A stretch of 64,000 bases of DNA from a phage, in the NCBI GenBank assembly GCA_014685065.1, contig GCA_014685065.1_3930.1; one strand, written 5' to 3'. Below are positions 5,723 through 32,510 of the stretch, one piece after another (the stretch's first letter is position 1; every line of letters starts with the position of its first letter). The notes under the pieces were generated by a model. It ran no database searches. It worked only from the letters and a program-made list of their open reading frames with translations, and had not been told where the DNA came from. Made by a program: the position numbers and the translations under genes.

Positions 5723-13738
<8,016 letters not shown>

Positions 13739-18192: not shown

Positions 18193-19296
18193 TTAGCCTT
18201 GAGCGTCAGCACGAACATCTACCAGCAACTGAGGACGAGTACAGTATGGCAGCATGTAAGAGTGAGCTTCGAAGTCAATACCTTCGTCACGGTCTTTTTC
18301 GTATTCGAATACGTATAGTTCCTGACCAAGTGTATTTGCATAACCCATCTTAGGACATGGGCCGTATGCAACTTCAAAGATGTTGTTAGCTTCACCCAAC
18401 ATAGATACGTTAGGGAAAGCGTGCCCTACACCAACGTCTGCACCAGCACCATCAATGCTAACCAGAGTATGAACCTTACCACGCTTGTCTTTAAACTTAC
18501 CGTTATACTGGACAAACTTAACGCCACCGTAGTAGAAAGTGTTCATGTGAGCCTGAACGCCGTCGGCACCACCAGTTCTCAGAGAACCAGTAATCTGTTG
18601 CCAAGCCAGCGGAGTCTGCTGTGCAAGATAAGCATCACGAATCTTAGGGTGCTTAGTCAGTTTGCTGAAGAATACACGGTCAACAACTACGTGAATTTCT
18701 TCACCGTTGATTACAGTGCCAGTCTTAGCTTCATCTTCCATGTGCATACGCAGTTCTTCAATAGAAGCGTCGATGTCAGCATTAGGGTTGTCAAGGTCGA
18801 AGTAAATAGTCTTCTTCTCAACGTCGAACTGCTTGTACAGGTCAGCGTACAGAGTACCACGAGCATCAACAACTTTACCCTTCAGAGCTTGCATAAACAG
18901 GAACTCACGAGTAATATCGAACTTGGTACGAATCTTCATCAGCTTCTTGGCACGTACTACAGCTTCAGTAGTCAGTTCGTTTGCAGTGCCTGGCTGACGT
19001 ACACCCTGAATCTCATCAGGAGTAATGCTTTCAACTTCTTTGAAGTACATCATTGGGAAGCTGATTTGACGAACACGCTCAGGTGCGCTAGTCTCTGCTT
19101 TACGGCTATCACGGTCTACCGCATCAAGCAAGCTAACATCCCAATCAGTCAAGTCCATAAGGAAAGTAGTTTGGGTGATTGGTGCTGAACGGAATAGACC
19201 TAAGTTGGAAATATACCCATAAGTATTTGGAATAGACTGGACTTCACCAGTCAGGTCAGCAAGGAAAAATCTGCTTTTTTCAGAATTAGTCAACAT
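18193..19296 (-). CDS. major capsid protein
   Basis: 367 aa; follows protease/scaffold gene; antisense 255-aa ORF inside it judged spurious. Confidence 0.6.
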   Translation of the reverse strand: MLTNSEKSRFFLADLTGEVQSIPNTYGYISNLGLFRSAPITQTTFLMDLTDWDVSLLDAVDRDSRKAETSAPERVRQISFPMMYFKEVESITPDEIQGVRQPGTANELTTEAVVRAKKLMKIRTKFDITREFLFMQALKGKVVDARGTLYADLYKQFDVEKKTIYFDLDNPNADIDASIEELRMHMEDEAKTGTVINGEEIHVVVDRVFFSKLTKHPKIRDAYLAQQTPLAWQQITGSLRTGGADGVQAHMNTFYYGGVKFVQYNGKFKDKRGKVHTLVSIDGAGADVGVGHAFPNVSMLGEANNIFEVAYGPCPKMGYANTLGQELYVFEYEKDRDEGIDFEAHSYMLPYCTRPQLLVDVRADAQG

Positions 19297-19329
19297 TGTA
19301 AAATTCTCCAGAATGTCTTATTATTGTTA

Positions 19330-19707
19330 TTACAGGCCAGTTGGTACGAAATCAATACCTTTAGCAGCCAGAGCTGTCTTGACTGCATCAGCATCAACAC
19401 CTGATTCAAGAGTAAGCAGGTCTTTTAGTTCTGCGTCACGGTAAATACCAACAACTTTCAACTGACCGTGGTAAGACAGTTGTAGGTCTGCGTAAAAGTT
19501 AACGATACATACAGAATCAGCCTGAGCTTCTTCCCCTGCTGCAACTTTAGTACCATCTGCTTTCAGGACTTCACCTACACGGTATTCTATTGAAGCAACT
19601 GGAGTGTACTCTTTGCGAGAGTGACCTGTTGGGGTAACCTGTTCCCAAAGAATGATATCATTCAGAGGTTCTCTTTTACCTAAGTGAGTAAAACCTTCAT
19701 ATGCCAT
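19330..19707 (-). CDS. hypothetical head protein (decoration/scaffold-associated)
   Basis: 125 aa ORF between protease/scaffold and capsid genes. Confidence 0.4.
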   Translation of the reverse strand: MAYEGFTHLGKREPLNDIILWEQVTPTGHSRKEYTPVASIEYRVGEVLKADGTKVAAGEEAQADSVCIVNFYADLQLSYHGQLKVVGIYRDAELKDLLTLESGVDADAVKTALAAKGIDFVPTGL

Positions 19708-25437: not shown

Positions 25438-25513
25438 TGGAGAATCCGAAGGGACTCGAACCCTTATAAACCTGTTTTGCAGACAGGCACATAGCCATTT
25501 CTGTCACGGATTC
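25438..25513 (-). tRNA. tRNA-Cys (anticodon GCA)
   Basis: Hand-folded cloverleaf: acceptor GAATCCG/CGGATTC, anticodon loop CTGCAAA, T-loop TTCGAGT, CCA encoded. Confidence 0.65.
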
Positions 25514-25517
25514 AAAT

Positions 25518-25610
25518 TGGAGGAAGATACCAGACTTGAACTGGTACACCGATTTCTCAGCTACTGGCAGTTTAGCAAACTGCTCCCTTACCTTTTAGGG
25601 TTAATCTTCC
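25518..25610 (-). tRNA. tRNA-Ser (anticodon GCU), class II
   Basis: 93 nt; acceptor GGAAGAT/ATCTTCC, anticodon loop TTGCTAA, long variable arm, T-loop TTCAAGT, CCA encoded. Confidence 0.6.
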
Positions 25611-25611
25611 A

Positions 25612-26346
25612 TTATTTCTGTAATGCGTTCTTCATTTCTGGTGTTGCAATAGTGTCAATTACACCAGTTTTACAGGCATCATCAAACCAGTCTGGTAAGA
25701 TACCTGCTAAGAACCCATTGATATTCGTTTTAAGGTACTCTGCAATAAGGGCAGCTTCTTCTTCAATCATCTGCACAACTTCATCTGCATAAGCTGTAAT
25801 CTTTGAGATACCTTCATTAATCTTACTGACAGCTTGGTTAGCTAAATCAGAAACAGTATCAAGACCCTTGTCAATAGCGTCTTGTAAGTCACTTAATACA
25901 TCGTTAACACTCTCTAGTGTACTGTTAATCGTATCAATAGCTTTTTGACCATATTCTGTAGCAACACCCATAATACCACTGAACGGTGTACAACCAACTT
26001 GTTCTCCTGCTGCACCCATAACATTGGAATATCCATTTGCTACCTGCATACGTGATGAAAACTCATCAATAGATTTTTGACCGTAGTCTGTCAGGGTCTT
26101 AGTAGTTGCTGTAGTGCTTGTAAGGCTTGTTGTAAAGCTGTTTAGAAGGACTGTTGTAAGTCCAGCAGCAACAAGTTTCTCCTGCATTGTAGGGTCTGTT
26201 ACAGAACTAATAGAGCTTACAAGTGATGTAGAAGCAGCTACGGTTCCACCGAGAACTGCTGCACCAGTAATAAGTGGGTTAGAAAACCCTTTACCGGTTT
26301 TTAAGAGATTAAAAATCTCCTTACCTTGTTCTGTCATCTCTTTCAT
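25612..26346 (-). CDS. hypothetical protein within tRNA cluster
   Basis: ORF track start 26409 overlaps tRNA-Phe; start moved to internal ATG (MKEMTEQ...); Ser/Thr-rich middle, helical C-terminus. Confidence 0.45.
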   Translation of the reverse strand: MKEMTEQGKEIFNLLKTGKGFSNPLITGAAVLGGTVAASTSLVSSISSVTDPTMQEKLVAAGLTTVLLNSFTTSLTSTTATTKTLTDYGQKSIDEFSSRMQVANGYSNVMGAAGEQVGCTPFSGIMGVATEYGQKAIDTINSTLESVNDVLSDLQDAIDKGLDTVSDLANQAVSKINEGISKITAYADEVVQMIEEEAALIAEYLKTNINGFLAGILPDWFDDACKTGVIDTIATPEMKNALQK

Positions 26347-26362
26347 TAAGCACCTTTGAAAT

Positions 26363-26439
26363 TGGTAGTCCAGTGGGATTTGAACCCTCTTCTCATGTTT
26401 TTCAGACACGCGCTTTAACCATATAAGCTACTTGGACTA
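26363..26439 (-). tRNA. tRNA-Phe (anticodon GAA)
   Basis: Acceptor TAGTCCA/TGGACTA, anticodon stem CGTGT/ACATG with loop CTGAAAA, T-loop TTCAAAT. Confidence 0.55.
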
Positions 26440-26444
26440 TAAAT

Positions 26445-26520
26445 TGGGGTGACCTACGGGATTTGAACCCGTATAGACCATGTTCACAGCATGGGTCATT
26501 GCCATTTATGATAAGGCCAC
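26445..26520 (-). tRNA. tRNA-His (anticodon GUG)
   Basis: Acceptor GTGGCCT/AGGTCAC, anticodon loop CTGTGAA, T-loop TTCAAAT, CCA encoded. Confidence 0.65.
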
Positions 26521-26551
26521 ATTTAAGGACTCTCGTAAGAACCCTTAGAAG

Positions 26552-26627
26552 TGGCAGCGGCATAAGGATTTGAACCTTAATAGGACAGCTTCAGAGACTG
26601 TTGCATTGCCAGTTATGCTATACCGCT
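26552..26627 (-). tRNA. tRNA-Gln (anticodon CUG)
   Basis: Acceptor AGCGGTA/TGCCGCT, D-stem GCAT/ATGC, anticodon loop CTCTGAA, T-stem TAAGG/CCTTA, CCA encoded. Confidence 0.6.
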
Positions 26628-26632
26628 AAATT

Positions 26633-26711
26633 TGGTACTCCATATCGGATTCGAACCGATACATAACACAGATTTTAAGTCTGGCCTCTCTGCCAATTGG
26701 AGTAATGGAGC
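26633..26711 (-). tRNA. tRNA with anticodon UAA (Leu-type) but class I architecture
   Basis: Acceptor GCTCCAT/ATGGAGT, A73, anticodon loop CTTAAAA, perfect T-arm ATCGG-TTCGAAT-CCGAT; short variable region. Confidence 0.45.
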
Positions 26712-26713
26712 AT

Positions 26714-26788
26714 TGGCGGGGGATGTTGGAATTGAACCAACTTCTTCGATTTCAAAGACCGAGGTTTTAACCTTGTAAACTAATCCCC
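26714..26788 (-). tRNA. tRNA-Gln (anticodon UUG)
   Basis: Anticodon stem TCGGT/ATCGA, loop CTTTGAA, T-arm GTTGG-TTCAATT-CCAAC, CCA encoded. Confidence 0.55.
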
Positions 26789-26797
26789 TTTAAATCT

Positions 26798-27355
26798 TTA
26801 CTTTCTCAGTGGATGAATAAAGAATGCCAACATAACTCTTTCCCTTGAGAATGCTCTTTCTTCTGGGACAACACTTTTTAGTTTCCATCCAATATAAATT
26901 CTCCAGTAAAACTGTTTACCAAAGACTTTAATTGATGGGATAAAAGCGAATAATCCCCAAGCATTACTGTTCCACATTAGGAGATAACCTGTCTGATTAT
27001 CTTCAGGGTCAGAACTTACGTTGATATTACCTTTCCACTTAGTAACATCTTTTACATCTCTTCCTAATACATGGTAAGAGAAGTTATAAGCTTTGTTTCT
27101 CCAGAGCCATCCGACTCTCTGCATGTAGACACCCAGCTTACCAATCTTTCTAATCTTAGCCCATCGTTCGATATGACCTTCGTCACCATCAATTGGATTG
27201 TCATATGTCTCCATCCATCTAAATCCGAAAGGTAAGTGGCCTTTCTTCTCACTGTAAAATGGAACTACGAAAGGTGCTAAGATAACTGCTAAGGTTGCTG
27301 CTAATGGTTCTAGCAAAGCTAGGAAAATCCATGAAGCATATTTTAAATATCTCAT
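26798..27355 (-). CDS. hypothetical membrane protein within tRNA cluster
   Basis: 185 aa; N-terminal hydrophobic segments, Trp-rich; sits exactly between two tRNAs. Confidence 0.5.
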   Translation of the reverse strand: MRYLKYASWIFLALLEPLAATLAVILAPFVVPFYSEKKGHLPFGFRWMETYDNPIDGDEGHIERWAKIRKIGKLGVYMQRVGWLWRNKAYNFSYHVLGRDVKDVTKWKGNINVSSDPEDNQTGYLLMWNSNAWGLFAFIPSIKVFGKQFYWRIYIGWKLKSVVPEERAFSRERVMLAFFIHPLRK

Positions 27356-27364
27356 CTAAATAGC

Positions 27365-27440
27365 CTCTTTAAATTGGCGCAGGATAAGGGATTCGAACCC
27401 CTATTAACAGCTTCGTAGACTGTTGCTCTATCCATTTGAA
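27365..27440 (-). tRNA. tRNA-Arg (anticodon ACG)
   Basis: Acceptor GCAGGAT/ATCCTGC, anticodon stem ACAGT/GCTGT, loop CTACGAA, T-loop TTCGAAT, CCA encoded. Confidence 0.65.
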
Positions 27441-27445
27441 CTAAT

Positions 27446-27523
27446 CCTGCAAAATTGGTGTTCCAAGACGGATTCGAACCGTCACTAGTACAAGGTTTGA
27501 GCTTGCATCCTCTGCCAATTGGG
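27446..27523 (-). tRNA. tRNA with anticodon CAA (Leu-type), class I architecture
   Basis: Acceptor GTTCCAG/TTGGAAC, A73, anticodon stem GCAAG/CTTGT, loop CTCAAAC, T-arm GACGG-TTCGAAT-CCGTC. Confidence 0.45.
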
Positions 27524-27524
27524 A

Positions 27525-27599
27525 TACTGGAACATGGTACTCACTAAAGGACTTGAACCTTTTTCTTCATCTTGTAAGGGTGGTGTTTTACCATATAAA
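27525..27599 (-). tRNA. tRNA, probable Val (anticodon UAC); weak anticodon stem
   Basis: Good acceptor, D and T arms (AAAGG-TTCAAGT-CCTTT); loop CTTACAA but anticodon stem has two C/A mismatches. Confidence 0.35.
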
Positions 27600-27604
27600 C
27601 TAAG

Positions 27605-27690
27605 CGAGTATGAAAGAGGTCTGAAGTTGTGCCGCTAACTCAACTCCGTGGAATTTGTTACGGTCTTCAGTTGACACCAGCGGTCTTTCA
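27605..27690 (-). repeat. structured spacer element (CUGAAGACCG family, copy e)
   Basis: Closing inverted repeat AGAGGTC...GACCTCT; internal CTGAAG...CTTCAG stem; contains ACGGTCTTCAG box shared with the other spacers. Confidence 0.4.
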
Positions 27691-27694
27691 CTTG

Positions 27695-27771
27695 ACCTCT
27701 GAATTGGTGCTGCTCACAGGACTCGAACCTGCATTTCCATCCTTACAAGGGATGTGTAATAGCCAATTATA
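27695..27771 (-). tRNA. tRNA-Thr (anticodon UGU)
   Basis: Acceptor GCTGCTT/GAGCAGC, anticodon stem CATCC/GGATG, loop CTTGTAA, CCA encoded. Confidence 0.65.
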
Positions 27772-27777
27772 CGAAAG

Positions 27778-27852
27778 CAGCATTGTTTGGAGCATCCAGA
27801 GGGAATCGAACCCTCAACCTCAGTTTGGAAGACTGTAATTTTCCCGTTTAAA
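27778..27852 (-). tRNA. tRNA-Gly (anticodon UCC)
   Basis: Acceptor GCATCCA/TGGATGC, anticodon loop CTTCCAA, T-arm GAGGG-TTCGATT-CCCTC. Confidence 0.6.
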
Positions 27853-27858
27853 CTATGG

Positions 27859-27934
27859 ATGCACTAATTGGTGGAGAAGCAGGGAATTGAACCCTGTACT
27901 TAAGTTTGCAAAACTTATGTTTTAACCATGTAAA
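27859..27934 (-). tRNA. tRNA-Ala (anticodon UGC)
   Basis: Anticodon stem TAAGT/ACTTA, loop TTTGCAA, T-arm CAGGG-TTCAATT-CCCTG, CCA encoded. Confidence 0.6.
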
Positions 27935-27940
27935 CTACAT

Positions 27941-28016
27941 CCCCAATGTTTGGTACAGGTGGAGGGAATTGAACCCATCGTCTTACTGATTAAGAGTCAG
28001 CCGCATAACCATTTTG
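27941..28016 (-). tRNA. tRNA-Lys (anticodon CUU)
   Basis: Acceptor GCAGGTG/CACCTGT, anticodon stem GCTGA/TCAGT, loop CTCTTAA, CCA encoded. Confidence 0.55.
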
Positions 28017-28023
28017 CTACACC

Positions 28024-28100
28024 TGCATTAATTTGGTACACCTAGAGAGATTCGAACTCACACTGAGCAGATTCTAAGTCTGCTGCCTCTACCAATTGGG
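28024..28100 (-). tRNA. tRNA with anticodon UAG (Leu-type), class I architecture
   Basis: Acceptor GCACCTA/TAGGTGT, A73, anticodon stem GCAGA/TCTGC, loop CTTAGAA, T-loop TTCGAAT. Confidence 0.45.
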
Positions 28101-28356
28101 CTATAGGTGCATTAAATCTTTTTAGAGAACTTCTAAGAACCTAAGCAACAAGGTTCCACAACAAGCTGTAATAACCTTAGAAGCCCTCTAAAAAGACCTA
28201 ATTTGGTCTTTGCATAGTCTTGTTTAATCCGGTGACTAGAACCTTTGGAGAGCTTGATATTATCTCTTCTCCGTGACACCTACTAGGTGCTTTACTGTGC
28301 GTGTACGACAATACACGAGGGATACCAAAGCAACATCCGAATGAAGCTTGGCTTTA

Positions 28357-28446
28357 AATCTTATTAGGCGGTAAGTAAAGGAGTCGAACCCTCACCGTAT
28401 CTCTACAGTGGCAACTGTTTTCAAGACAGTTTGGCTACCATTAGCC
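28357..28446 (-). tRNA. tRNA-Ser (anticodon UGA), class II
   Basis: ~90 nt; acceptor GGTAGGT/ACTTACC, perfect anticodon stem ACTGT/ACAGT, loop CTTGAAA, long variable arm; only CC of CCA encoded. Confidence 0.55.
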
Positions 28447-28459
28447 GCTACCTACCCCT

Positions 28460-28542
28460 AATAAGACTTTGGCATGGGACGGAGGAGTTGAACCACTTTG
28501 AAACGGTTTTGGAGGCCGTTGCTCATGCCTTAGAGTCTTAAC
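28460..28542 (-). tRNA. tRNA-like gene, possible Trp (anticodon CCA); atypical D-region and T-stem
   Basis: Perfect acceptor GTGGGAC/GTCCCAT with CCA; loop CTCCAAA; D-loop over-long and T-stem with mismatches, may be degenerate. Confidence 0.35.
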
Positions 28543-28684
28543 ATCGTCCCACACTATAATTCGAAGCTTACCGTATTTTCACAACACTGTAAAGCCCCTT
28601 CTCAGATTATTTACATGTTCTGGAAAACATGAGATACAGACCACCTCCTTACACGGAGACCCGATAAGGTCGTCTAAGCAATCT

Positions 28685-28761
28685 GCTAACTATTTGGCAC
28701 ACCCTACAGGATTCGAACCTGTAACTAACGATTTAGAAGACCGTTGCTCTATCCAATTGAA
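28685..28761 (-). tRNA. tRNA-Arg (anticodon UCU)
   Basis: Acceptor GCACCCT/AGGGTGT, anticodon stem ACGGT/ATCGT, loop CTTCTAA; D-arm near-identical to tRNA-Arg(ACG). Confidence 0.65.
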
Positions 28762-29008
28762 CTAAGGGTGCATTAATCTTTAAAGACTCTCTTAGAAAGC
28801 CCTTAAAGATGCCCACCTTATTAATCATACCGTGGGCGAGTACGCCAAATTCTTTGATGAGGGATTGGAAGACCTCACTGGTGTTTAGCCTATCAAGCTA
28901 CTGCCAGAAAAACATTGTCGTTTGCATTTATTTTAAATTTGCAAAATAGACGCTACGCAACGAAAACTAAGGTTACTATAAAGTGGTCACATCTCAATGT
29001 CAACAACT

Positions 29009-29084
29009 TTATTGAAATTGGTACTGTGAGAAGGATTCGAACCTTCTGCCTTTCGGTTATCAGCCGAATGCACATCCATATGTG
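29009..29084 (-). tRNA. tRNA-Ile (anticodon GAU)
   Basis: Acceptor GCTGTGA/TCACAGT, D-stem GCAC/GTGC, anticodon stem TTCGG/CCGAA, loop CTGATAA, CCA encoded. Confidence 0.65.
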
Positions 29085-29087
29085 CTT

Positions 29088-29573
29088 TCACAGCATTGTT
29101 ACCCCTTCGTGTACCTCTCTGTGGCAATTTGCACACAGTAATACACACTTATCAACTTCAGACTTCATTACCTCTATAGAGAAGTGTTTTTGTCCTACTG
29201 TGAAGTCCTTTGTATTAGGGTCTAAGTGGTGAAACTCTAAAGCCTTTATGCACTTATTGTATCCACAAATTGAGCAACAACCACCTTTGTAATCAACTAA
29301 AACCCTCTTAAGTTTGTCACGAGACTTTTTAACGTGTTGTGACTTCGCTTTCTTTTCTTCATCGGGGTTTTTGTATTGTTTCAGAATACCATTTGAAATA
29401 CATTCATCACAATACTTTCTTGATTTTGGTGTTTGTTTTCCACATGAATGACAAGAGCCTTCTTGTCTTCTTTTTGGATGACTCTTGTTGTTTACCCTTG
29501 CAGCACAAGAGCGTGAACAATATTTTCCGCCTTTAACGGCTTTGTTGTCACAATCTTTATTAGCACAAAACAT
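29088..29573 (-). CDS. HNH homing endonuclease with N-terminal Cys-rich zinc-finger repeats
   Basis: C-terminal HNH motif (CCSICGYN...LEFHHLDP...CVLLCANCHREVH); four CxxC-type pairs N-terminally; ORF-track start at 29732 would overlap tRNA-Met so start set at MFCANKDC. Confidence 0.7.
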   Translation of the reverse strand: MFCANKDCDNKAVKGGKYCSRSCAARVNNKSHPKRRQEGSCHSCGKQTPKSRKYCDECISNGILKQYKNPDEEKKAKSQHVKKSRDKLKRVLVDYKGGCCSICGYNKCIKALEFHHLDPNTKDFTVGQKHFSIEVMKSEVDKCVLLCANCHREVHEGVTML

Positions 29574-29589
29574 AATATCACCAACGAAT

Positions 29590-29666
29590 TGGAGGTTCAG
29601 ATGGGAATCGAACCCACATTCATAGGGCTTATGAGACCCCTGCATTACCTTATCTGCGACTGAACC
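29590..29666 (-). tRNA. tRNA-Met (anticodon CAU; elongator vs initiator vs Ile2 unresolved)
   Basis: Acceptor GGTTCAG/CTGAACC, anticodon stem GGGGT/GCCCT with G-U ends, loop CTCATAA, T-loop TTCGATT. Confidence 0.6.
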
Positions 29667-29670
29667 ATAT

Positions 29671-29746
29671 TGGTAGAAGTGGAGGGATTCGAACCCATCG
29701 CCTGTCAGATTAAAAGTCTGCCGCATCACCATTCTGCTACACTTCC
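29671..29746 (-). tRNA. tRNA-Lys (anticodon UUU)
   Basis: Anticodon loop CTTTTAA, T-arm similar to tRNA-Lys(CUU), CCA encoded. Confidence 0.6.
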
Positions 29747-29752
29747 ATTAAA

Positions 29753-29894
29753 ATTATCTTTGTAGATAAGCTATCCAGACTTGCTTAAGGTCTGTAGCGA
29801 TGTGCCTTGTTGGGTTTAAATCTAGAATTTACCCTTTCACTCTTTGTGGTCGCATACTCACAGGTAAGCTTAATAACTTATCTACAAAGATAAT
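29753..29894 (-). repeat. perfect 18-bp inverted repeat pair flanking a 106-bp core (hairpin RNA or MITE-like insertion)
   Basis: ATTATCTTTGTAGATAAG at 29753-29770 and exact reverse complement at 29877-29894; core holds CAGAC-TTGCTTAAG-GTCTG hairpin. Confidence 0.5.
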
Positions 29895-29895
29895 T

Positions 29896-30028
29896 ACCAG
29901 ACCGTTGTTTATCATCTTAAGTGCTACCATTACACCAACTCGACATCTGCCGAGTGAAGGAATCGAACCTTCGCCTTTTCTTTACCGGAGAAATAGATTG
30001 TTTAAGTTTTGCTGTAAACGGTCTTCTG
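29896..30028 (-). repeat. spacer element copy a (CCAGACC...GGTCTTCTG family) containing tRNA-like T-arm and D-arm in permuted order
   Basis: Closing stem AGACCGTT/AACGGTCT; internal GGCGAAGG-TTCGATT-CCTTC T-arm-like hairpin followed by GAGTTGGTGTAATGGTAGCAC D-arm-like segment. Confidence 0.4.
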
Positions 30029-30040
30029 TAAATTTGTTGA

Positions 30041-30116
30041 GCCAGACCAAGTTTTAAATTTTCAAAATTAAATTGGCTTGAAATTTCATACATTCTTGCT
30101 GTATTTGGTCTTCTGC
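30041..30116 (-). repeat. spacer element copy b (CCAGACC...GGTCTTCTG family)
   Basis: GCCAGACCAAG...TTGGTCTTCTG closing inverted repeat; conserved ACAGCAAG box in minus sense. Confidence 0.4.
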
Positions 30117-30202
30117 TCCTTTAAAGAATACTCGTAAGAACCCTTTAAGGGAGGGGCTAAATAGCCCTCTCAAAACATCATCTTGAAATACTTATTATAA
30201 TT

Positions 30203-30279
30203 TGGCGGTTACGAAGGGATTTGAACCCTCATCATCTCCCGTGACAGGGGAGTATTTTAACCAGTTAAACTACATAACC
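30203..30279 (-). tRNA. tRNA-Asp (anticodon GUC)
   Basis: Anticodon stem CTCCC/GGGAG, loop CTGTCAC, T-arm GAGGG-TTCAAAT-CCCTT, CCA encoded. Confidence 0.65.
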
Positions 30280-30285
30280 TTTATT

Positions 30286-30373
30286 TGGTGTGCCGTGTAG
30301 GAGTCGAACCTACCGAGTCTCAATGACAAGGGATTTACAGTCCCCACCGCTACCATCTACGGGATAACGACAC
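30286..30373 (-). tRNA. tRNA-Tyr (anticodon GUA), class II
   Basis: 88 nt; acceptor GTGTCGT/ACGGCAC, anticodon stem GGGGA/TCCCT, loop CTGTAAA, long variable arm, T-arm GTAGG-TTCGACT-CCTAC. Confidence 0.6.
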
Positions 30374-30442
30374 ATTTAATTTCTATTCAGGCTAAGGACT
30401 TGCACCTTACAAATCGGTGAGCAATCGCTTCTCTCCTAAATT

Positions 30443-30519
30443 TGGCGGTTAGTCAGGGATTCGAACCCTGTGCCATTCGCTTAACAGGCGACCGCACATA
30501 CCTTATGTGCTTCCTAACC
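30443..30519 (-). tRNA. tRNA-Asn (anticodon GUU)
   Basis: D-stem GCAC/GTGC, anticodon loop CTGTTAA, T-arm CAGGG-TTCGAAT-CCCTG, CCA encoded. Confidence 0.6.
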
Positions 30520-30529
30520 TTAATACATT

Positions 30530-30591
30530 GCCAGACCGTGTTTTTTCTTTTATCCGCAAAAAGTATTTTGTTGCTGAATACGGTCTTCTGC
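30530..30591 (-). repeat. spacer element copy c (CCAGACC...GGTCTTCTG family)
   Basis: GCCAGACCGTG...ATACGGTCTTCTG closing inverted repeat with ~45-nt structured loop. Confidence 0.4.
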
Positions 30592-30596
30592 AAAAT

Positions 30597-30672
30597 TGGA
30601 GGCGGGTGCAGGAGTCGAACCTGCCGATACCATGCTAATGAGACATGTGAGACGCCCTTTCTCTATACCCGC
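30597..30672 (-). tRNA. second CAU-anticodon tRNA (Met/fMet/Ile2 candidate)
   Basis: D-stem GAGA/TCTC, anticodon stem CATGT/GCATG, loop CTCATTA (unusual U at position 37), T-arm GCAGG-TTCGACT-CCTGC. Confidence 0.5.
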
Positions 30673-30683
30673 AATTCTTAATG

Positions 30684-30759
30684 ACCAGACCAAATCTCTT
30701 CTTTGTCCGATTTACCTTCAGATGAATAAGATTAAGTTTGCTGTAATTGGTCTTCTGTC
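30684..30759 (-). repeat. spacer element copy d (CCAGACC...GGTCTTCTG family)
   Basis: GACCAGACCAAA...ATTGGTCTTCTG closing inverted repeat; conserved ACAGCAAACTTAA box in minus sense. Confidence 0.4.
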
Positions 30760-30764
30760 AAAAC

Positions 30765-30842
30765 TGGCGTTCCAGAAGGGATTTGAACCCTCAAATATCC
30801 ACTTTGAAAGAGTGGTGACTTTACCATTTTGTCTACTGGAAC
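30765..30842 (-). tRNA. tRNA-Glu (anticodon UUC)
   Basis: Perfect acceptor GTTCCAG/CTGGAAC and anticodon stem CCACT/AGTGG, loop CTTTCAA, CCA encoded. Confidence 0.65.
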
Positions 30843-30849
30843 ATTAATT

Positions 30850-30929
30850 TGGTCTCCGTTGAAGGATTTGAACCCTCGACCCCTTGCTCCCAAAGCAAGT
30901 GCTGCTAAACCAAACTGAGCTAAACGGAG
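30850..30929 (-). tRNA. tRNA-Pro (anticodon UGG)
   Basis: Anticodon stem CTTGC/GCAAG, loop TTTGGGA; 3' half resembles bacterial tRNA-Pro (GGGGTCGAGGGTTCAAATCC); CCA encoded. Confidence 0.6.
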
Positions 30930-31094: not shown

Positions 31095-32510
31095 TTACCA
31101 GATGTAACGGTCAATCATTACTGCTTTGAGCATTACGCTGATTGGGTCAAACTTCTCACCACCAAGCAGAGCTTTTAAAGTGGCTGGAGAGAACCCTGAT
31201 ACCATTGCTACACCATTATCCTTAACAGATACTTCGCAAGTACCATTACGGTTTGCTAAGTACCAGAATACCAGTTGTGGCATTTTGTATCCAGCTTTTT
31301 TGTACTTACTACGAATCGCTTCAAAGTTTGTACGACCATTAGCTCCATCAACCTGATTGAACTCCATATCAGAGAAGATAATAAGCTTACTTGGCATATC
31401 TTTCTGAGTCAAGTTGTTTCTCTTACCTGTTTCAAGAATGCGGTCAAAAGCTGCTTGTAAGTTAGTTGAGCCATATTCAACGTGTCGCATCACCTGACGA
31501 TGACGGTTTCGTAAATCACCACTCAGTTCGATGAAGTGAGGGTTTGTCGAATAAACCATCAACTCATTCTTAAAGCAACCTGTATTGCGTTCTGCTACAT
31601 ACAAGGCAAGTGATACACCAATATCCAGAGCAGTAATGGAGCCAAAATTCACCCAAGACATTGAACTTGATACATCAGACATACACAAGATGTTTTCACC
31701 TTCTGCCATCCAGTTTGGTAGTGCTTTCCACTGCTCATTAGCAACATCTGCATTACCATACTTGACAGATTTAATCACATCGTATGGGTAAACAGCACCA
31801 GCGTTAATCTTAGTCTCACCTTTTGATAAGGACTCGATGTAAGCTTTGTAACGCTCTCCATCTTTACGGTTAAACAGTTTTTGGTAACGTGCAGCAGCAA
31901 GTGAAGGAATCTTACTGTAGTCAATCTTACCAAACTCATTAGCAGAGATTTTTTGCTCAACTGTATCAGATAGTGCAGACAACAGTGTGCGATACTCTTT
32001 CTCACTCAAGTTTGCAAACTTGCAGAAACGTTTTACAAACTGTTTGTGACGTGGTTTTACTCGTGGTAACCACTTAGCTGCTAAACCTGCTGTTGCAGGG
32101 TCTAGTAAAGCTGCTTCTAAATGTTTGAAGGCATCTGTCTCGAAACGAGTACCTACAAAGATTTTGAAGTCATCAAAGCGACCAAGCTCTGCAATCTTAT
32201 CCATAATGCGAAGAACCTGCGTAGGCTCTAAAACTTTATCTTCAATCGCTTGAAGTAAAACAGTTCGGAAAGCTTTACGCTCACCCATACCTTCTCGTAC
32301 ATCTCGCATATGCAGTAAAATACGAACTGCAACATCAACATCCTCATGCAAAGCTTTGTAGAACAAGTCTGGTAAGATTTCTACATTGCTACGGCTGGAA
32401 CCAGCAGCTTTGTAAAAGTCCACAAGAGCAGACATTGATGAAGTATGGTTTACAGCACCATTTTCAGTTCGACCTGCATGAAGGTGCGCATGTTTAAATA
32501 ATTCGCTCAT
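31095..32510 (-). CDS. von Willebrand factor A (vWA) domain protein with helical N-terminal domain
   Basis: 471 aa; MIDAS-like DxSxS motif (MSDVSSSMS) and downstream Thr/Asp positions (GSTNL, IIFSDMEF) typical of vWA. Confidence 0.55.
   Translation of the reverse strand: MSELFKHAHLHAGRTENGAVNHTSSMSALVDFYKAAGSSRSNVEILPDLFYKALHEDVDVAVRILLHMRDVREGMGERKAFRTVLLQAIEDKVLEPTQVLRIMDKIAELGRFDDFKIFVGTRFETDAFKHLEAALLDPATAGLAAKWLPRVKPRHKQFVKRFCKFANLSEKEYRTLLSALSDTVEQKISANEFGKIDYSKIPSLAAARYQKLFNRKDGERYKAYIESLSKGETKINAGAVYPYDVIKSVKYGNADVANEQWKALPNWMAEGENILCMSDVSSSMSWVNFGSITALDIGVSLALYVAERNTGCFKNELMVYSTNPHFIELSGDLRNRHRQVMRHVEYGSTNLQAAFDRILETGKRNNLTQKDMPSKLIIFSDMEFNQVDGANGRTNFEAIRSKYKKAGYKMPQLVFWYLANRNGTCEVSVKDNGVAMVSGFSPATLKALLGGEKFDPISVMLKAVMIDRYIW

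What the first reader, a model, noticed from the sequence alone, without database searches (positions are those of the whole stretch)
25438..30929. 27-gene tRNA cluster whose anticodons appear to cover all 20 amino acids
Hand folding of minus-strand sequences gives cloverleaf candidates with anticodons for Cys, Ser(x2), Phe, His, Gln(x2), Arg(x2), Thr, Gly, Ala, Lys(x2), Ile, Met/CAU(x2), Asp, Tyr, Asn, Glu and Pro, plus Leu-type(x3), Val and Trp candidates that are less canonical. A full amino-acid set would make the phage largely independent of host tRNA pools. Most encode the 3' CCA.
Basis: partly seen in the sequence, partly recalled or inferred. Interest (0 to 1): 0.55.

Follow-up and report, generated by a model that had tools for sequence, protein, structure and literature searches.

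The report
Phage tRNA cluster hiding Y-like RNAs
The tRNA gene cluster is real but already known for Felix O1-type phages; among its genes sit an unannotated odd tryptophan-type tRNA and four small RNAs of a previously undescribed family that travels with a Ro60-like protein gene in many unrelated phages.

Summary
The window comes from a Felixounavirus. Rfam's tRNA model accepts 24, including all three Leu and the Val candidates.

The 27th candidate (Trp, 28470-28552) fails both detectors. It is nevertheless a conserved cloverleaf with anticodon CCA, G73 and compensatory changes in all four helices. It carries about 8 extra bases between the acceptor and D stems and is not annotated as a tRNA in any of the 60 records listed.

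The cluster itself is published (Felix O1: 22 tRNAs; Sf14: 26 tRNAs for 19 amino acids). "Independence from host tRNA pools" is overstated, because the set reads 75-90% of the window's codons and misses GGU/GGC.

The new part lies in the gaps between tRNAs. Four RNA modules (A-D, 29894-30760) share a covarying stem, AG...CUG ends and a UWCAGCAA motif, and D encloses a permuted tRNA-like domain arranged as in YrlA. The upstream gene (31095-32510, DUF2828) folds like Ro60. A covariance model built only from other phages finds A-C at E 2e-5 to 3e-8. It finds 72 same-strand hits at DUF2828 loci and none in controls. The modules also resemble Dictyostelium Class I RNAs, below Rfam's threshold.

The parts
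25438..30929 (-). tRNA gene cluster: 26 ARAGORN tRNAs. Cys 25438-25513, Ser(GCU) 25518-25610, Phe 26363-26438, His 26445-26520, Gln(CUG) 26552-26627, Leu(UAA) 26633-26711, Gln(UUG) 26714-26789, Arg(ACG) 27375-27450, Leu(CAA) 27456-27533, Val 27535-27609, Thr 27705-27781, Gly 27788-27862, Ala 27869-27944, Lys(CUU) 27951-28026, Leu(UAG) 28034-28110, Ser(UGA) 28367-28456, Arg(UCU) 28695-28771, Ile 29019-29094, CAU 29590-29666, Lys(UUU) 29671-29746, Asp 30203-30279, Tyr 30286-30373, Asn 30443-30519, CAU 30597-30673, Glu 30765-30842, Pro 30850-30929.
   Evidence: ARAGORN. Rfam tRNA accepts 24 of 26 at its gathering score. The same set in the same order is found in Felixounavirus, Suspvirus and Mooglevirus genomes.
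28470..28552 (-). Non-canonical tRNA(Trp)-like gene. It has a 7-bp acceptor stem, a 10-nt connector (GAUGUUAAGA) where tRNAs have 2 nt, a 3-bp D stem with a GG-containing loop, an anticodon stem with C31.A39, anticodon loop CUCCAAA, a weak T stem (U.U in this window), G73 and an encoded CCA.
   Evidence: The alignment of 11 variants gives 19 pairs with 99.5% of cells paired and 8 pairs changed on both sides. Slid controls give 31-51% paired and 0 such pairs. The element is present in 236 phage records and is not annotated as a tRNA in any of the 60 listed. It is 55/84 identical to E. coli tRNATrp and shares the block GAGCAxCGGxCUCCAAAACCG.
30682..30760 (-). Module A: short stem-CAGCAA RNA (core 30686-30753, AGACCAA|UUACAGCAA...UUGGUCU|G), with an extra outer helix UGAC/GUCA and an AGA bulge.
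   Evidence: Model R1, built without Felix-like sequences, scores it 36.3 bits, E 1.9e-7. The terminal stem covaries. The ends are conserved and the interior is divergent across genera.
30528..30593 (-). Module B: short stem-CAGCAA RNA (core 30532-30586).
   Evidence: R1 scores it 39.4 bits, E 2.7e-8. The outer helix changes UUGC/GCAA to UUAC/GUAA in a compensatory way. Rfam Dicty_Class_I_RNA scores it 24.0 bits, below the gathering score of 41.5.
30039..30118 (-). Module C: short stem-CAGCAA RNA (core 30043-30111).
   Evidence: R1 scores it 29.1 bits, E 1.9e-5. Alignment; stem statistics.
29894..30031 (-). Module D: long stem-CAGCAA RNA enclosing a permuted tRNA-like domain. The order is V hairpin, T arm GAAGG-UUCGAUU-CCUUC, a closed 7-bp acceptor-like hairpin ACUCGGC-AGAU-GUCGAGU, then D arm GUG-UAAUGGUAG-CAC.
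   Evidence: 26 pairs with 99.3% of cells paired; 3 pairs of the acceptor-like stem are changed on both sides (CUCG/CGAG, CACG/CGUG, CCCUUC/GAAGGG). Rfam tRNA gives a partial hit of 23.8 bits. The order of elements matches YrlA as described in PMC4201824.
31095..32510 (-). Gene for a 471-aa Ro60-fold protein (Pfam DUF2828 + DUF7788), immediately upstream of the cluster on the same strand.
   Evidence: Pfam hits. AlphaFold2 model with mean pLDDT 89.7. The 12 best Foldseek matches in the PDB are all Ro60/Rsr/phage Ro60, E 5e-8 to 2e-6, TM 0.44-0.67. The Bas63 homologue gp130 was called Ro60-like and a counter of the Ppl defence (PMC11482910).
30956..31076 (-). Two sigma-70-like promoters between the Ro60-like gene and tRNA-Pro: TTGACA-17-TAATAT at 31076-31048 and TTGACA-18-TAAAGT at 30985-30956.
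   Evidence: Consensus scan, 10 of 12 matches each. These are predictions only; the total number of such sites in the region is no higher than in shuffles.
28975..29003 (-). Internal sigma-70-like promoter TTGACA-17-TATAGT after tRNA-Ile. It is followed by a roughly 190-nt highly conserved leader before tRNA-Arg(UCU).
   Evidence: 11 of 12 matches. Conservation and a compensatory hairpin UGAGG/CCUCA to CAGGG/CCCUG.
25612..26346 (-). ORF inside the cluster (DUF7217), annotated as a putative membrane protein in relatives.
   Evidence: Pfam 1.6e-88; annotation of phage garuso.
26798..27355 (-). ORF inside the cluster (DUF7338).
   Evidence: Pfam 4.3e-62.
29088..29573 (-). ORF inside the cluster between the CAU tRNA and tRNA-Ile, annotated as an HNH endonuclease in relatives and absent at this site in Mooglevirus genomes.
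   Evidence: Annotation of garuso_99. Met and Ile are adjacent in 3HA14 and Moogle. No Pfam hit.

Best explanation
The locus is the tRNA operon of a Felix O1-type phage.

(1) Standard tRNAs. It encodes 26 tRNAs, mostly with U34 or G34, one or two per codon box. They match the A/U-ending codons of the 39% G+C phage genome. They most likely top up or replace host tRNAs during infection, either as codon compensation or as insurance against host tRNA depletion or cleavage. They do not make translation autonomous.

(2) Trp-like gene. A 27th gene is a derived tRNATrp. It keeps the anticodon loop CUCCAAA, G73, a G1.U72 or A1-U72 first pair and an encoded CCA, but has about 8 extra bases between the acceptor and D stems. 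Its structure is under selection, so it is made and used as an RNA. I infer, without proof, that it is a working tRNATrp.

(3) Stem-CAGCAA RNAs. Four further RNAs sit between the tRNA genes. They belong to a family defined here: 5'-AG, a 6-8 bp covarying stem, UWCAGCAA exactly 10 nt from the AG, a variable A/U-rich body of about 35 nt or a larger insert, the 3' stem strand, then CU-G. The family lies next to, and on the same strand as, DUF2828 genes in many unrelated phages. The DUF2828 protein has the Ro60 fold.

The most likely mechanism, by analogy with Ro60 and Y RNAs, is that the stem plus CAGCAA motif is the handle bound by the Ro60-like protein. The variable body would then recruit or mimic a partner; in module D this body is a tRNA-like domain arranged as in YrlA. 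The result would be phage ribonucleoprotein particles acting in RNA surveillance or counter-defence, made from the same transcripts as the tRNAs.

Shown here: the sequences, the structures through covariation, the genomic association and the protein fold. Inferred: expression, processing, protein binding and biological role.
For: tRNAs:
- ARAGORN and Rfam detections.
- The region is 94-97% identical to Felix O1, KEP3 and garuso.
- The same set and order occur in three genera.
- Codon usage is rich in A/U-ending codons (AGA 41% of Arg, UUA 30% of Leu, CCA 52% of Pro), and the set covers 75-90% of codons.
- The cluster is published: PMC3185647 (22 tRNAs) and PMC12482277 (26 tRNAs, 19 amino acids).

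Trp-like gene:
- Covariation statistics.
- A third anticodon-stem variant with CCA kept in Pectobacterium phage Arno162.
- Similarity to the verified E. coli tRNATrp sequence.

RNA family:
- The terminal stem is 100% paired, with 5 of 11 pairs changed on both sides.
- A regex search finds 56 units on the gene strand, 1 on the other strand and 1.4 in shuffles, in 39 of 75 DUF2828 loci. None lies inside the gene and most lie within 700 nt of it.
- The AG-to-CAGCAA spacing is 10 nt in 52 of 54 units and U sits at -2 in 50 of 54. Neither was imposed by the search.
- Model R1, built from non-Felix units, finds only A, B and C as significant hits in the 64-kb window.
- R1 finds nothing better than E 0.08 in 814 kb of unrelated viral DNA.
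- R1 finds 72 hits, all on the gene strand, in 47 loci. These include Listeria LMSP-25, Mycobacterium Krypton555, Campylobacter F371, Vibrio KVP40 and Aeromonas LAh_9.
- Arno162 has the homologous tRNA cluster but neither a DUF2828 gene nor any R1 hit.

Protein: Ro60 fold.
Against: - No expression, processing, aminoacylation or binding data exist for this phage.
- The Trp-like gene fails both tRNA detectors. Its 10-nt connector has no precedent that I could check. The window's copy has an extra U.U mismatch in the T stem that most relatives lack.
- The Ro60-like protein matches neither Pfam TROVE nor any PDB sequence.
- The modules lack the GNCGAA/CGAA motif of known bacterial and phage Y RNAs.
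- Rfam YrlA does not hit module D at E<=10.
- 28 of the 75 IMG/VR DUF2828 loci show no unit, even with the model.
- DUF2828 genes are also usually near tRNA genes, so linkage to tRNA operons rather than to the protein is not fully excluded.
- The promoter predictions are no more numerous than chance.
Confidence: 0.72

Rival explanations
1. One reading: a complete 20-amino-acid tRNA set makes the phage largely independent of host tRNA pools.
For: There are anticodons for 19 amino acids plus a Trp-like gene. Nearly every codon box has a reader, and coverage reaches 90% of codons if U34 reads three codons.
Against: Coverage is only 75% under strict wobble. There is no reader for GGU/GGC, which is 5% of all codons and includes the commonest Gly codon, nor for ACC, GUC, GCC, CUC, UCC, CCC or CGG. 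The Trp gene is non-canonical. Bas63 tRNA genes were reported as mostly non-essential. Host synthetases and modification enzymes are still required (inference).
Confidence: 0.2
2. The Trp-like element is a decaying tRNA pseudogene with no function.
For: ARAGORN and Rfam reject it. It has an 8-nt insertion, a C.A mismatch next to the anticodon loop and an imperfect T stem. Felix O1-type genomes are known to hold 'pseudo' tRNAs.
Against: 8 of 19 pairs show changes on both sides and 99.5% of cells stay paired across Felixounavirus, Suspvirus, Mooglevirus and a Pectobacterium phage. The anticodon CCA, G73, the CCA end and the inserted decamer are invariant or nearly so. It is retained in 236 records.
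Confidence: 0.2
3. Modules A-D are only spacers or processing signals of the tRNA operon (for example RNase III or RNase E sites, or attenuators) and have nothing to do with the Ro60-like protein.
For: They lie between tRNA genes on the same strand. DUF2828 genes are generally near tRNA genes, so co-location could be indirect.
Against: Arno162 has the homologous tRNA cluster but no module and no DUF2828 gene. In other phages the units form tandem arrays that abut the DUF2828 gene rather than tRNAs: LAh_9 has 11 hits, and LMSP-25 has three directly upstream. An invariant single-stranded CAGCAA at a fixed distance from the stem points to sequence-specific recognition. Module D carries a complete tRNA-like fold.
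Confidence: 0.15
4. The tRNA cluster is mainly a counter-defence device: spare tRNAs that keep translation going when host anticodon nucleases or tRNA-depleting systems fire. Codon compensation would be secondary.
For: The idea is proposed for phage tRNAs in general (PMC10264068, listed and cited). Several tRNA positions hold very different alleles with the same anticodon in closely related phages (Leu UAG, Pro, Ile), which looks like diversifying exchange. The neighbouring Ro60-like gene counters a defence system in Bas63.
Against: The Sf14 study judged nuclease evasion unlikely for that host. The anticodon set also fits the phage's codon bias well. Nothing here tests cleavage resistance.
Confidence: 0.35

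Closest known systems
tRNA gene clusters of Felix O1-like phages (Ounavirinae): Felix O1 with 22 tRNAs (PMC3185647) and Shigella phage Sf14 with 26 tRNAs for 19 amino acids (PMC12482277)
   Same: It is the same locus. The region is 94-97% identical in DNA, with the same anticodons in the same order and the same flanking genes: terminase on one side and the DUF2828 gene on the other.
   Different: Nothing essential differs for the 26 genes. The published counts do not include the Trp-like gene or the four modules.
E. coli tRNATrp (sequence verified)
   Same: Both have the anticodon loop CUCCAAA, G73, a 7-bp acceptor stem and nearly the same bases from the D-stem 3' strand through the anticodon stem. 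The first pair is A1-U72 in most relatives.
   Different: The phage gene has a 10-nt instead of a 2-nt connector between the acceptor and D stems, a 3-bp D stem, C31.A39 instead of U31-A39, a weak T stem, and G1.U72 in this window.
Bacterial class II tRNALeu
   Same: Both have A73, a 3-bp D stem and an 11-nt D loop CCAAUUGGYAGAG like that of E. coli tRNALeu. The E. coli loop is quoted from memory and was not verified here.
   Different: The phage genes have no long variable arm: the loop is 4-7 nt and total length 77-79 nt. KVP40's two Leu tRNAs are also 77 nt.
Ro60 / Rsr / phage Ro60 (TROVE proteins) with Y RNAs, including YrlA (PMC4201824) and Thermus phage phiLo Yrl1/2 (PMC12135203)
   Same: The protein has the same ring-plus-vWA fold. 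The small RNAs are encoded next to the protein gene, close their ends in a stem, and come in several copies per genome. One of them carries a tRNA-like domain in the order V, T arm, acceptor-like hairpin, D arm. The long unit of mycobacteriophage Krypton555 scores 38.3 bits against Rfam YrlA (E 2.7e-5), below that family's gathering score of 69.
   Different: The protein family is DUF2828/DUF7788, with no TROVE hit and 12-15% identity to solved Ro60 structures. The conserved RNA motif is UWCAGCAA at a fixed 10 nt from a 5' AG, not GNCGAA/CGAA. Module D is not found by Rfam YrlA. The modules are embedded in a tRNA operon.
Class I RNAs of dictyostelid amoebae (Rfam RF01414; PMC7919456)
   Same: Both are about 60 nt long. 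Both have a 5' (A)AG, a short covarying stem joining the two ends, the motif (CC)UUACAGCAA directly after the 5' stem strand, a variable A/U-rich body, and a 3' stem strand ending in C followed by UG.
   Different: Phage units score 12.8-24 bits against a gathering score of 41.5. The spacing differs by one base. Class I RNAs are reported as unique to Dictyostelia and bind the RRM protein Rnp1A/CIBP. No link to a Ro60-like protein is known.

Membership tests
tRNA (Rfam RF00005 / ARAGORN) | Cloverleaf that scores above the curated threshold | tested here: met
   24 of 27 candidates score 33-66 bits against a gathering score of 29. ARAGORN accepts 26. Not met for the Trp-like gene, and at RF00005 not met for Tyr and the CAU tRNA at 30597-30673.
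   Leu x3 score 43.6, 47.5 and 58.9 bits and Val 55.8 bits, so all four are accepted. Trp is rejected; its best score is 21.3 bits against tRNA-Sec.
tRNATrp | Anticodon CCA in a 7-nt loop, and G73 | tested here: met
   The loop CUCCAAA (UUCCAAC in some relatives) and G73 are present. CCA and G73 are invariant in 11 variants.
tRNATrp | Canonical tRNA core geometry (2-nt connector at positions 8-9, 4-bp D stem, 5-bp T stem) | tested here: not met
   The connector is 10 nt, the D stem is 3 bp, and the T stem has 3-4 pairs plus mismatches.
tRNATrp | Aminoacylation by TrpRS and use on the ribosome | not testable with these tools
   This needs biochemistry or charged-tRNA sequencing.
Class II tRNALeu | Long variable arm | tested here: not met
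   The variable loops are 4, 5 and 7 nt. The same holds in all seven genomes compared.
Class II tRNALeu | A73 discriminator and a Leu-type D arm | tested here: met
   All three genes end in A-CCA and have a 3-bp D stem with the loop CAAUUGGYAGA.
Bacterial initiator tRNAfMet | Mismatch at 1:72, G2-C71 and C3-G70, and three G-C pairs next to the anticodon loop | tested here: inconclusive
   The CAU tRNA at 30597-30673 has Y1xC72 in all seven genomes and shares bases 2-6 (GCGGG, with the matching CCCGC on the 3' side) with E. coli tRNAfMet. It lacks the three G-C pairs and has U37 and U73.
Felix O1-type (Ounavirinae) tRNA cluster | Sequence identity and synteny with published genomes | tested here: met
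   207 records cover at least 80% of the 6.4-kb query. Gene order is identical.
Ro60 / TROVE proteins | HEAT-repeat ring plus vWA fold | tested here: met
   The 12 best PDB matches are all Ro60 family members over the full length, E 5e-8 to 2e-6. The model has mean pLDDT 89.7.
Ro60 / TROVE proteins | Sequence membership (Pfam TROVE, or similarity to solved Ro60) | tested here: not met
   Pfam reports DUF2828 and DUF7788 only. phmmer against PDB sequences finds nothing at E<=1.
YrlA / bacterial Y RNA (Rfam RF02553) | Score against the family model | tested here: not met
   No YrlA hit at E<=10 on the window region. Krypton555's long unit scores 38.3 bits, below the gathering score of 69.
YrlA / bacterial Y RNA (Rfam RF02553) | Architecture: ends closed by a stem, enclosing a V hairpin, T arm, acceptor-like hairpin and D arm; encoded next to a Ro-type gene | tested here: met
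   Module D has 26 pairs with 99.3% of cells paired and a covarying acceptor-like stem. It lies about 1.1 kb downstream of the Ro60-fold gene on the same strand.
YrlA / bacterial Y RNA (Rfam RF02553) | GNCGAA(N)G motif near the 5' end | tested here: not met
   The 5' region reads CAGAAGACCGUUUACAGCAA, with no GNCGAA (motif taken).
Dictyostelium Class I RNA (Rfam RF01414) | Score at or above the gathering score of 41.5 bits | tested here: not met
   Scores are 24.0 (B), 19.7 (A) and 12.8 (D) bits, and 23.1 bits for a Listeria phage unit. None of 11 further loci reaches the gathering score.
Stem-CAGCAA RNAs next to DUF2828 genes (family defined here, model R1) | Significant score against a model built without Felix-like sequences | tested here: met
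   B scores 39.4 bits (E 2.7e-8), A 36.3 bits (1.9e-7) and C 29.1 bits (1.9e-5). D matches only partly (13.5 bits) because of its insert. There is no other significant hit in the 64 kb. Controls are clean.
Stem-CAGCAA RNAs next to DUF2828 genes (family defined here, model R1) | Physical binding to the DUF2828 protein | not testable with these tools
   This needs RIP-seq, EMSA or a structure.

The most novel reading that the evidence does not exclude
The stem-CAGCAA RNAs are the Y-RNA equivalents of the DUF2828 branch of Ro60-like proteins. On this reading the Class I RNAs of dictyostelid amoebae, whose function is still unknown and which are thought unique to that group, belong to the same RNA class. 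They would be recognised through the same AG-stem-UUACAGCAA...CUG handle. DUF2828 proteins occur in eukaryotes and giant viruses as well as in phages, and one of the four proteins pulled down with Class I RNA (DDB_G0281243) is still uncharacterised.
Probability: 0.15. Interest if true: 0.9.

Novelty: new variant of a known kind. Interest (0 to 1): 0.62.

Why it matters
The tRNA cluster as such adds nothing new. Three points go beyond the literature I could reach.

1. A conserved tRNATrp-like gene with an expanded core would complete the amino-acid set of these phages. It is missed by standard annotation: none of the 60 records listed annotates it as a tRNA.

2. Concrete RNA partners are proposed for a very common phage protein family. 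DUF2828 is found in 710 phage records in the collection searched. One member (Bas63 gp130) was reported to counter the Ppl defence system, and its authors could only guess that "some tRNA genes are possibly Y RNAs". The coordinates and the model given here make that guess directly testable.

3. The same RNA grammar appears in Dictyostelium Class I RNAs, an abundant RNA class without a known mechanism. If the link is real, it offers a protein family to test there.

Tried and rejected
- ARAGORN at lowered thresholds gave a different, poor fold for the Trp-like gene (4-base 'anticodon' AGCA). I rejected it in favour of the covariation-supported fold.
- Rfam YrlA, Y_RNA and tmRNA were searched. 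There is no YrlA or Y_RNA hit in the window. The weak tmRNA hits at 28772-28961 (15.9 bits) were not pursued.
- IMG/VR scans for GGGACGAYGTTAAGA and AGAAGACCNNNWWCAGCAA returned mostly chance matches. Only Felix-like contigs had complete elements. The other loci were reused as negative controls.
- The V hairpin of module D could not be aligned consistently between Felixounavirus and Mooglevirus, so it was left out of the pair counts.
- Three further regex 'units' in the window (2564-2617, 12810-12906, 19249-19384) lie in coding sequence, lack the UW context and are not found by R1. I judged them chance matches.
- A possible fifth Y-like stem at about 28640-28690 (AGACGACC...GGUGGUCU) was seen by eye only and was not tested.
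- I could not test whether Dictyostelium has a DUF2828 protein or whether DDB_G0281243 is one. The AlphaFold-database fold library was unavailable, the 2011 pull-down paper is not held, and literature searches for DUF2828 and DDB_G0281243 gave nothing relevant.
- The identity of the two CAU tRNAs (initiator, elongator Met or lysidine-Ile) could not be settled from sequence.

Full report
**What the window is.** The 6.4 kb around the finding is 94-97% identical to many Felix O1-type phages (KEP3, garuso, Felix O1 itself). 207 records cover at least 80% of the query. The region lies between the large terminase gene and a 471-codon gene annotated in relatives as a vWFA, RNA-binding or DUF2828 protein.

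**The observation.** Rfam's tRNA model at its curated threshold accepts 24 of them. Tyr (30286-30373) and one CAU tRNA (30597-30673) fall below that model. Felix O1's own paper likewise lists its homologues as 'pseudo (Tyr)' and as Met with a Cove score of 28.9. Twenty-five of the 26 genes encode CCA; Ser(UGA) ends GCC followed by T. The same set in the same order is present in Felixounavirus, Suspvirus and Mooglevirus genomes.

**It is already known.** Felix O1 was described with 22 tRNAs (PMC3185647). [quoted passage not shown]

**The Leu-type genes.** All three are 77-79 nt long with a variable loop of 4-7 nt, so they have a class I shape rather than the long variable arm of bacterial tRNALeu. 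They keep A73, a 3-bp D stem and an 11-nt D loop CAAUUGGYAGA. The two Leu tRNAs of Vibrio phage KVP40 are also 77 nt. From memory, and not tested here, E. coli LeuRS does not need the long arm, so a Leu identity remains plausible.

**The Trp candidate.** The only sequence with a CCA anticodon in a tRNA-like context is 28470-28552(-). ARAGORN and Rfam reject it. Alignment with relatives shows a cloverleaf with the following parts:

- a 7-bp acceptor stem;
- a 10-nt connector GAUGUUAAGA where tRNAs have two bases;
- a 3-bp D stem with a GG-containing loop;
- an anticodon stem closed by C31.A39 and the loop CUCCAAA;
- a 5-nt variable loop and an imperfect T stem;
- G73 and CCA.

Eleven distinct variants were collected from three genera, IMG/VR contigs and Pectobacterium phage Arno162. 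They give 19 pairs with 99.5% of cells paired and 8 pairs changed on both sides. Examples are the D stem CUC/GAG changing to CAC/GUG, and the anticodon stem AACGG/CCGUU changing to GUAAG/CUUAC or GUAGG/CCUAC. Sliding the 3' partners gives 31-51% paired and no such pair. The single unpaired cell is this window's own U.U in the T stem, a minority variant.

I checked my remembered E. coli tRNATrp sequence against 5,426 genomes. It matches at 100%, with a median of one copy per genome. The phage gene shares 55 of 84 aligned positions with it, including the block GAGCAxCGGxCUCCAAAACCG. The element occurs in 236 phage records and is not annotated as a tRNA in any of the 60 listed. It is a selected, structured RNA derived from tRNATrp. 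Whether it is charged and decodes UGG cannot be decided here.

**The interpretation.** Over 74 long ORFs of the window (16,640 codons, 38.8% G+C), the anticodon set reads 75% of codons under strict wobble. It reads 90% if U34 in four-codon boxes also reads U-ending codons. GGU/GGC, ACC, GUC, GCC, CUC, UCC, CCC, CGG, and possibly AUA and UGG, have no reader. The set fits the phage's preference for A/U-ending codons, as the Felix O1 paper already argued. In Bas63, a close relative, the tRNA genes were mostly non-essential on four laboratory hosts. 'Largely independent of host tRNA pools' is too strong; supplementation or insurance is the better reading.

**What else is in the cluster.** The gaps between tRNA genes are not empty. 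Four elements (A 30682-30760, B 30528-30593, C 30039-30118, D 29894-30031, all on the minus strand) share one design: 5' N4-AGA-AGACCNN-UWACAGCAA, a variable interior, then NNGGUCU-G-N4 3'. Across genera the two ends are nearly invariant, while the interior changes in sequence and length. On 16 sequences of A, B and C, the 11 pairs of the bulged terminal helix are 100% paired, and 5 of them are changed on both sides. Slid controls give 19-46% paired. G.U pairs occur only in the tRNA-strand reading.

Module D encloses a hairpin, a perfect T arm (GAAGG-UUCGAUU-CCUUC), a closed 7-bp acceptor-like hairpin and a D arm. On 11 variants, 99.3% of cells pair. The acceptor-like stem has three versions: CUCG/CGAG, CACG/CGUG and CCCUUC/GAAGGG. 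This order is the one described for bacterial YrlA Y RNAs (PMC4201824).

**The neighbouring protein.** The gene at 31095-32510 matches Pfam DUF2828 and DUF7788, not TROVE. It has no sequence match in the PDB. An AlphaFold2 model built on 44 homologues has mean pLDDT 89.7. Its 12 best Foldseek matches in the PDB are all Ro60 proteins over their full length: Xenopus and human Ro60, Deinococcus Rsr and Thermus phage phiLo Ro60, with E 5e-8 to 2e-6 and TM 0.44-0.67. The PhageMaP preprint on Bas63 reached the same structural conclusion for gp130. [quoted passage not shown]

**Is the link general?** Homologues of the protein occur in 710 phage records from many host groups. I took 75 IMG/VR loci with homologues of 38-47% identity. 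A simple search for 'AG, stem of at least 6 bp, 2-4 bases, CAGCAA..., stem, CU, G' gave these counts:

| Sequence searched | Units found |
|---|---|
| DUF2828 loci, gene strand | 56 |
| DUF2828 loci, other strand | 1 |
| Shuffled DUF2828 loci | 1.4 |
| 1.12 Mb of unrelated viral contigs, both strands | 17 (mostly long, coding-like) |

The 56 units are spread over 39 loci. None lies inside the gene, and about 45 lie within 700 nt of it. Two features were not imposed by the search: the AG-to-CAGCAA distance is 10 nt in 52 of 54 distinct units, and the base two positions before CAGCAA is U in 50 of 54. Lengths are bimodal, around 59 nt and 90-158 nt, and several of the long units hold T, acceptor-like and D arms.

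I then built a covariance model (R1) from 31 short units, none from Felix-like phages.

| Sequence searched with R1 | Result |
|---|---|
| The 64-kb window | Only B (39.4 bits, E 2.7e-8), A (36.3 bits, 1.9e-7) and C (29.1 bits, 1.9e-5) are significant; D's 5' part gives a partial hit |
| 814 kb of unrelated viral loci | Best hit E 0.08 |
| 940 kb of DUF2828 loci | 72 hits at E<=0.01, all on the gene strand, in 47 loci |

The loci with hits include several named phages:

- Aeromonas LAh_9 has 11 hits, most in a tandem array abutting the gene.
- Listeria LMSP-25 has three units directly upstream.
- Campylobacter F371 has two units directly upstream.
- Mycobacterium Krypton555 has units directly downstream. 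Its long unit scores 38.3 bits against Rfam YrlA.
- KVP40 has a unit inside its tRNA cluster, plus a UUUUACAGCAA about 20 nt before the gene's start codon.

Pectobacterium phage Arno162 is a useful natural control. It has the homologous tRNA cluster, including the Trp-like gene. It has no DUF2828 homologue in 99% of its genome and no R1 hit.

**Comparison with known families.** Phage Ro60 proteins with Y-like RNAs are known (mycobacteriophages, phiLo). Those RNAs are defined by a CGAA-type motif. The modules here lack that motif, and Rfam YrlA does not find module D. The only Rfam family that repeatedly turns up is Dicty_Class_I_RNA, always below its gathering score of 41.5 bits: 24.0 bits for B, 19.7 for A, 12.8 for D, and 23.1 for a Listeria phage unit. 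It was absent at the gathering score in 11 further loci.

The published definition of Class I RNAs is as follows: about 60 nt, a 5' (A)AG, a short covarying stem joining the ends, an 11-nt motif (CCUUACAGCAA in the Rfam consensus) next to the 5' stem strand, a variable remainder, and a 3' ...CUGU whose C pairs with the 5' G. That is the same grammar as the phage family. I treat this as a resemblance, not as membership.

Class I RNAs are reported as unique to Dictyostelia and bind Rnp1A/CIBP. One co-purifying protein, DDB_G0281243, is uncharacterised. DUF2828 proteins exist in plants and in mimivirus-like sequences. I could not test Dictyostelium.

**Verdict.** The finding as written is correct but ordinary, and its interpretation is overstated. 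Two additions are worth following up: an overlooked, structurally odd tRNATrp-like gene, and a new widespread class of Y-like RNAs tied to DUF2828 Ro60-fold proteins, four of which sit inside this cluster. The sequences, structures and associations are shown here. Expression, binding and function are inferred.

Noticed in passing
L004 (Aeromonas phage LAh_9, NC_048776.1) 7520-7960, also 6829-6974 and 3921-3974: There is a tandem array of stem-CAGCAA units directly upstream of the DUF2828 gene, with 11 R1 hits in the locus. Parts of the array overlap the annotated start of the gene and small annotated ORFs.
   Followed up: partly
L004 5334-5450 and 190-305: These are tRNA-shaped RNAs (Rfam tRNA 53.9 and 47.7 bits). 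In the first, inspected directly, the anticodon loop is replaced by an insert of about 50 nt that contains UUACAGCAA. A gene for RNA ligase 2 lies in the same locus.
   Followed up: no
L003 (Vibrio phage KVP40) about 7920-8000: A T-arm-like hairpin CACGGGUUCAAAUCCGUG and then UUUUACAGCAA lie in the leader of the DUF2828 gene, about 20 nt before its start codon. This could be a site for autoregulation.
   Followed up: no
window 29752-29892 (-): A long conserved hairpin lies just downstream of module D. Its inner stem changes CAGAC/GUCUG to CAAACC/GGUUUG between genera, around a loop UUAAGCAA or UUUAGCAA.
   Followed up: partly
window 28772-28968 (-): A leader of about 190 nt between a strong promoter-like site and tRNA-Arg(UCU) is more conserved across genera than many of the tRNAs. 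It has a compensatory hairpin and weak Rfam tmRNA hits (15.9 bits), and contains a 9-codon ORF, MQTTMFFWQ.
   Followed up: no
window 26521-26551, 28111-28190, 28775-28810, 30130-30165 (-): A repeated hairpin of the form UUAAAGGGUUCUUACGAGUAUUCUUUAA precedes several tRNA groups. It may be a processing or regulatory signal.
   Followed up: no
window 26445-26520 (-): tRNA-His has G1-C72 and C73, but the base at -1 is T in all seven genomes compared. The G-1 that E. coli tRNAHis carries (quoted from memory) is therefore not encoded.
   Followed up: no
window 30597-30673 (-): This CAU tRNA shares bases 2-6 (GCGGG, with the matching CCCGC on the 3' side) with E. coli initiator tRNA and has a conserved Y1xC72 mismatch. 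It lacks the three G-C pairs of the anticodon stem and has U37 and U73. Rfam tRNA does not detect it even at E<=10.
   Followed up: partly
window 28034-28110, 30850-30929, 29019-29094 (-) compared with L001, L005, L006, L007, L008: Leu(UAG), Pro(UGG) and Ile(GAU) each occur as two or more very different alleles with the same anticodon at the same position. The alleles are distributed without regard to genus. In garuso the Arg(UCU) gene is replaced by a different sequence. This looks like cassette exchange between short conserved spacers (AAU...CCAAAUU).
   Followed up: partly
L002, L005, L006, L007, after tRNA-Arg(UCU); L005 after the Trp-like gene: These relatives carry extra tRNA-like genes of about 120-190 nt. 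They have good acceptor and T arms and large internal inserts. They are absent from this window.
   Followed up: no
window 30374-30442 (-): A 69-nt element between tRNA-Asn and tRNA-Tyr is conserved in Felixounavirus, Suspvirus and 3HA14 but absent from Moogle and HP1. It contains a T-arm-like AAGG-UGCAAGU-CCUU.
   Followed up: no
L320 (Listeria phage LMSP-25) 1428-1979: A ROOL RNA match (88.5 bits, just under the gathering score of 99.1, E 7e-17) lies in the same neighbourhood as tRNAs, the DUF2828 gene and an RtcB-type ligase gene.
   Followed up: no
L286 11715-12132: A phage-encoded tmRNA (88 bits) and a run of tRNA genes lie downstream of a DUF2828 gene in an IMG/VR contig.
   Followed up: no
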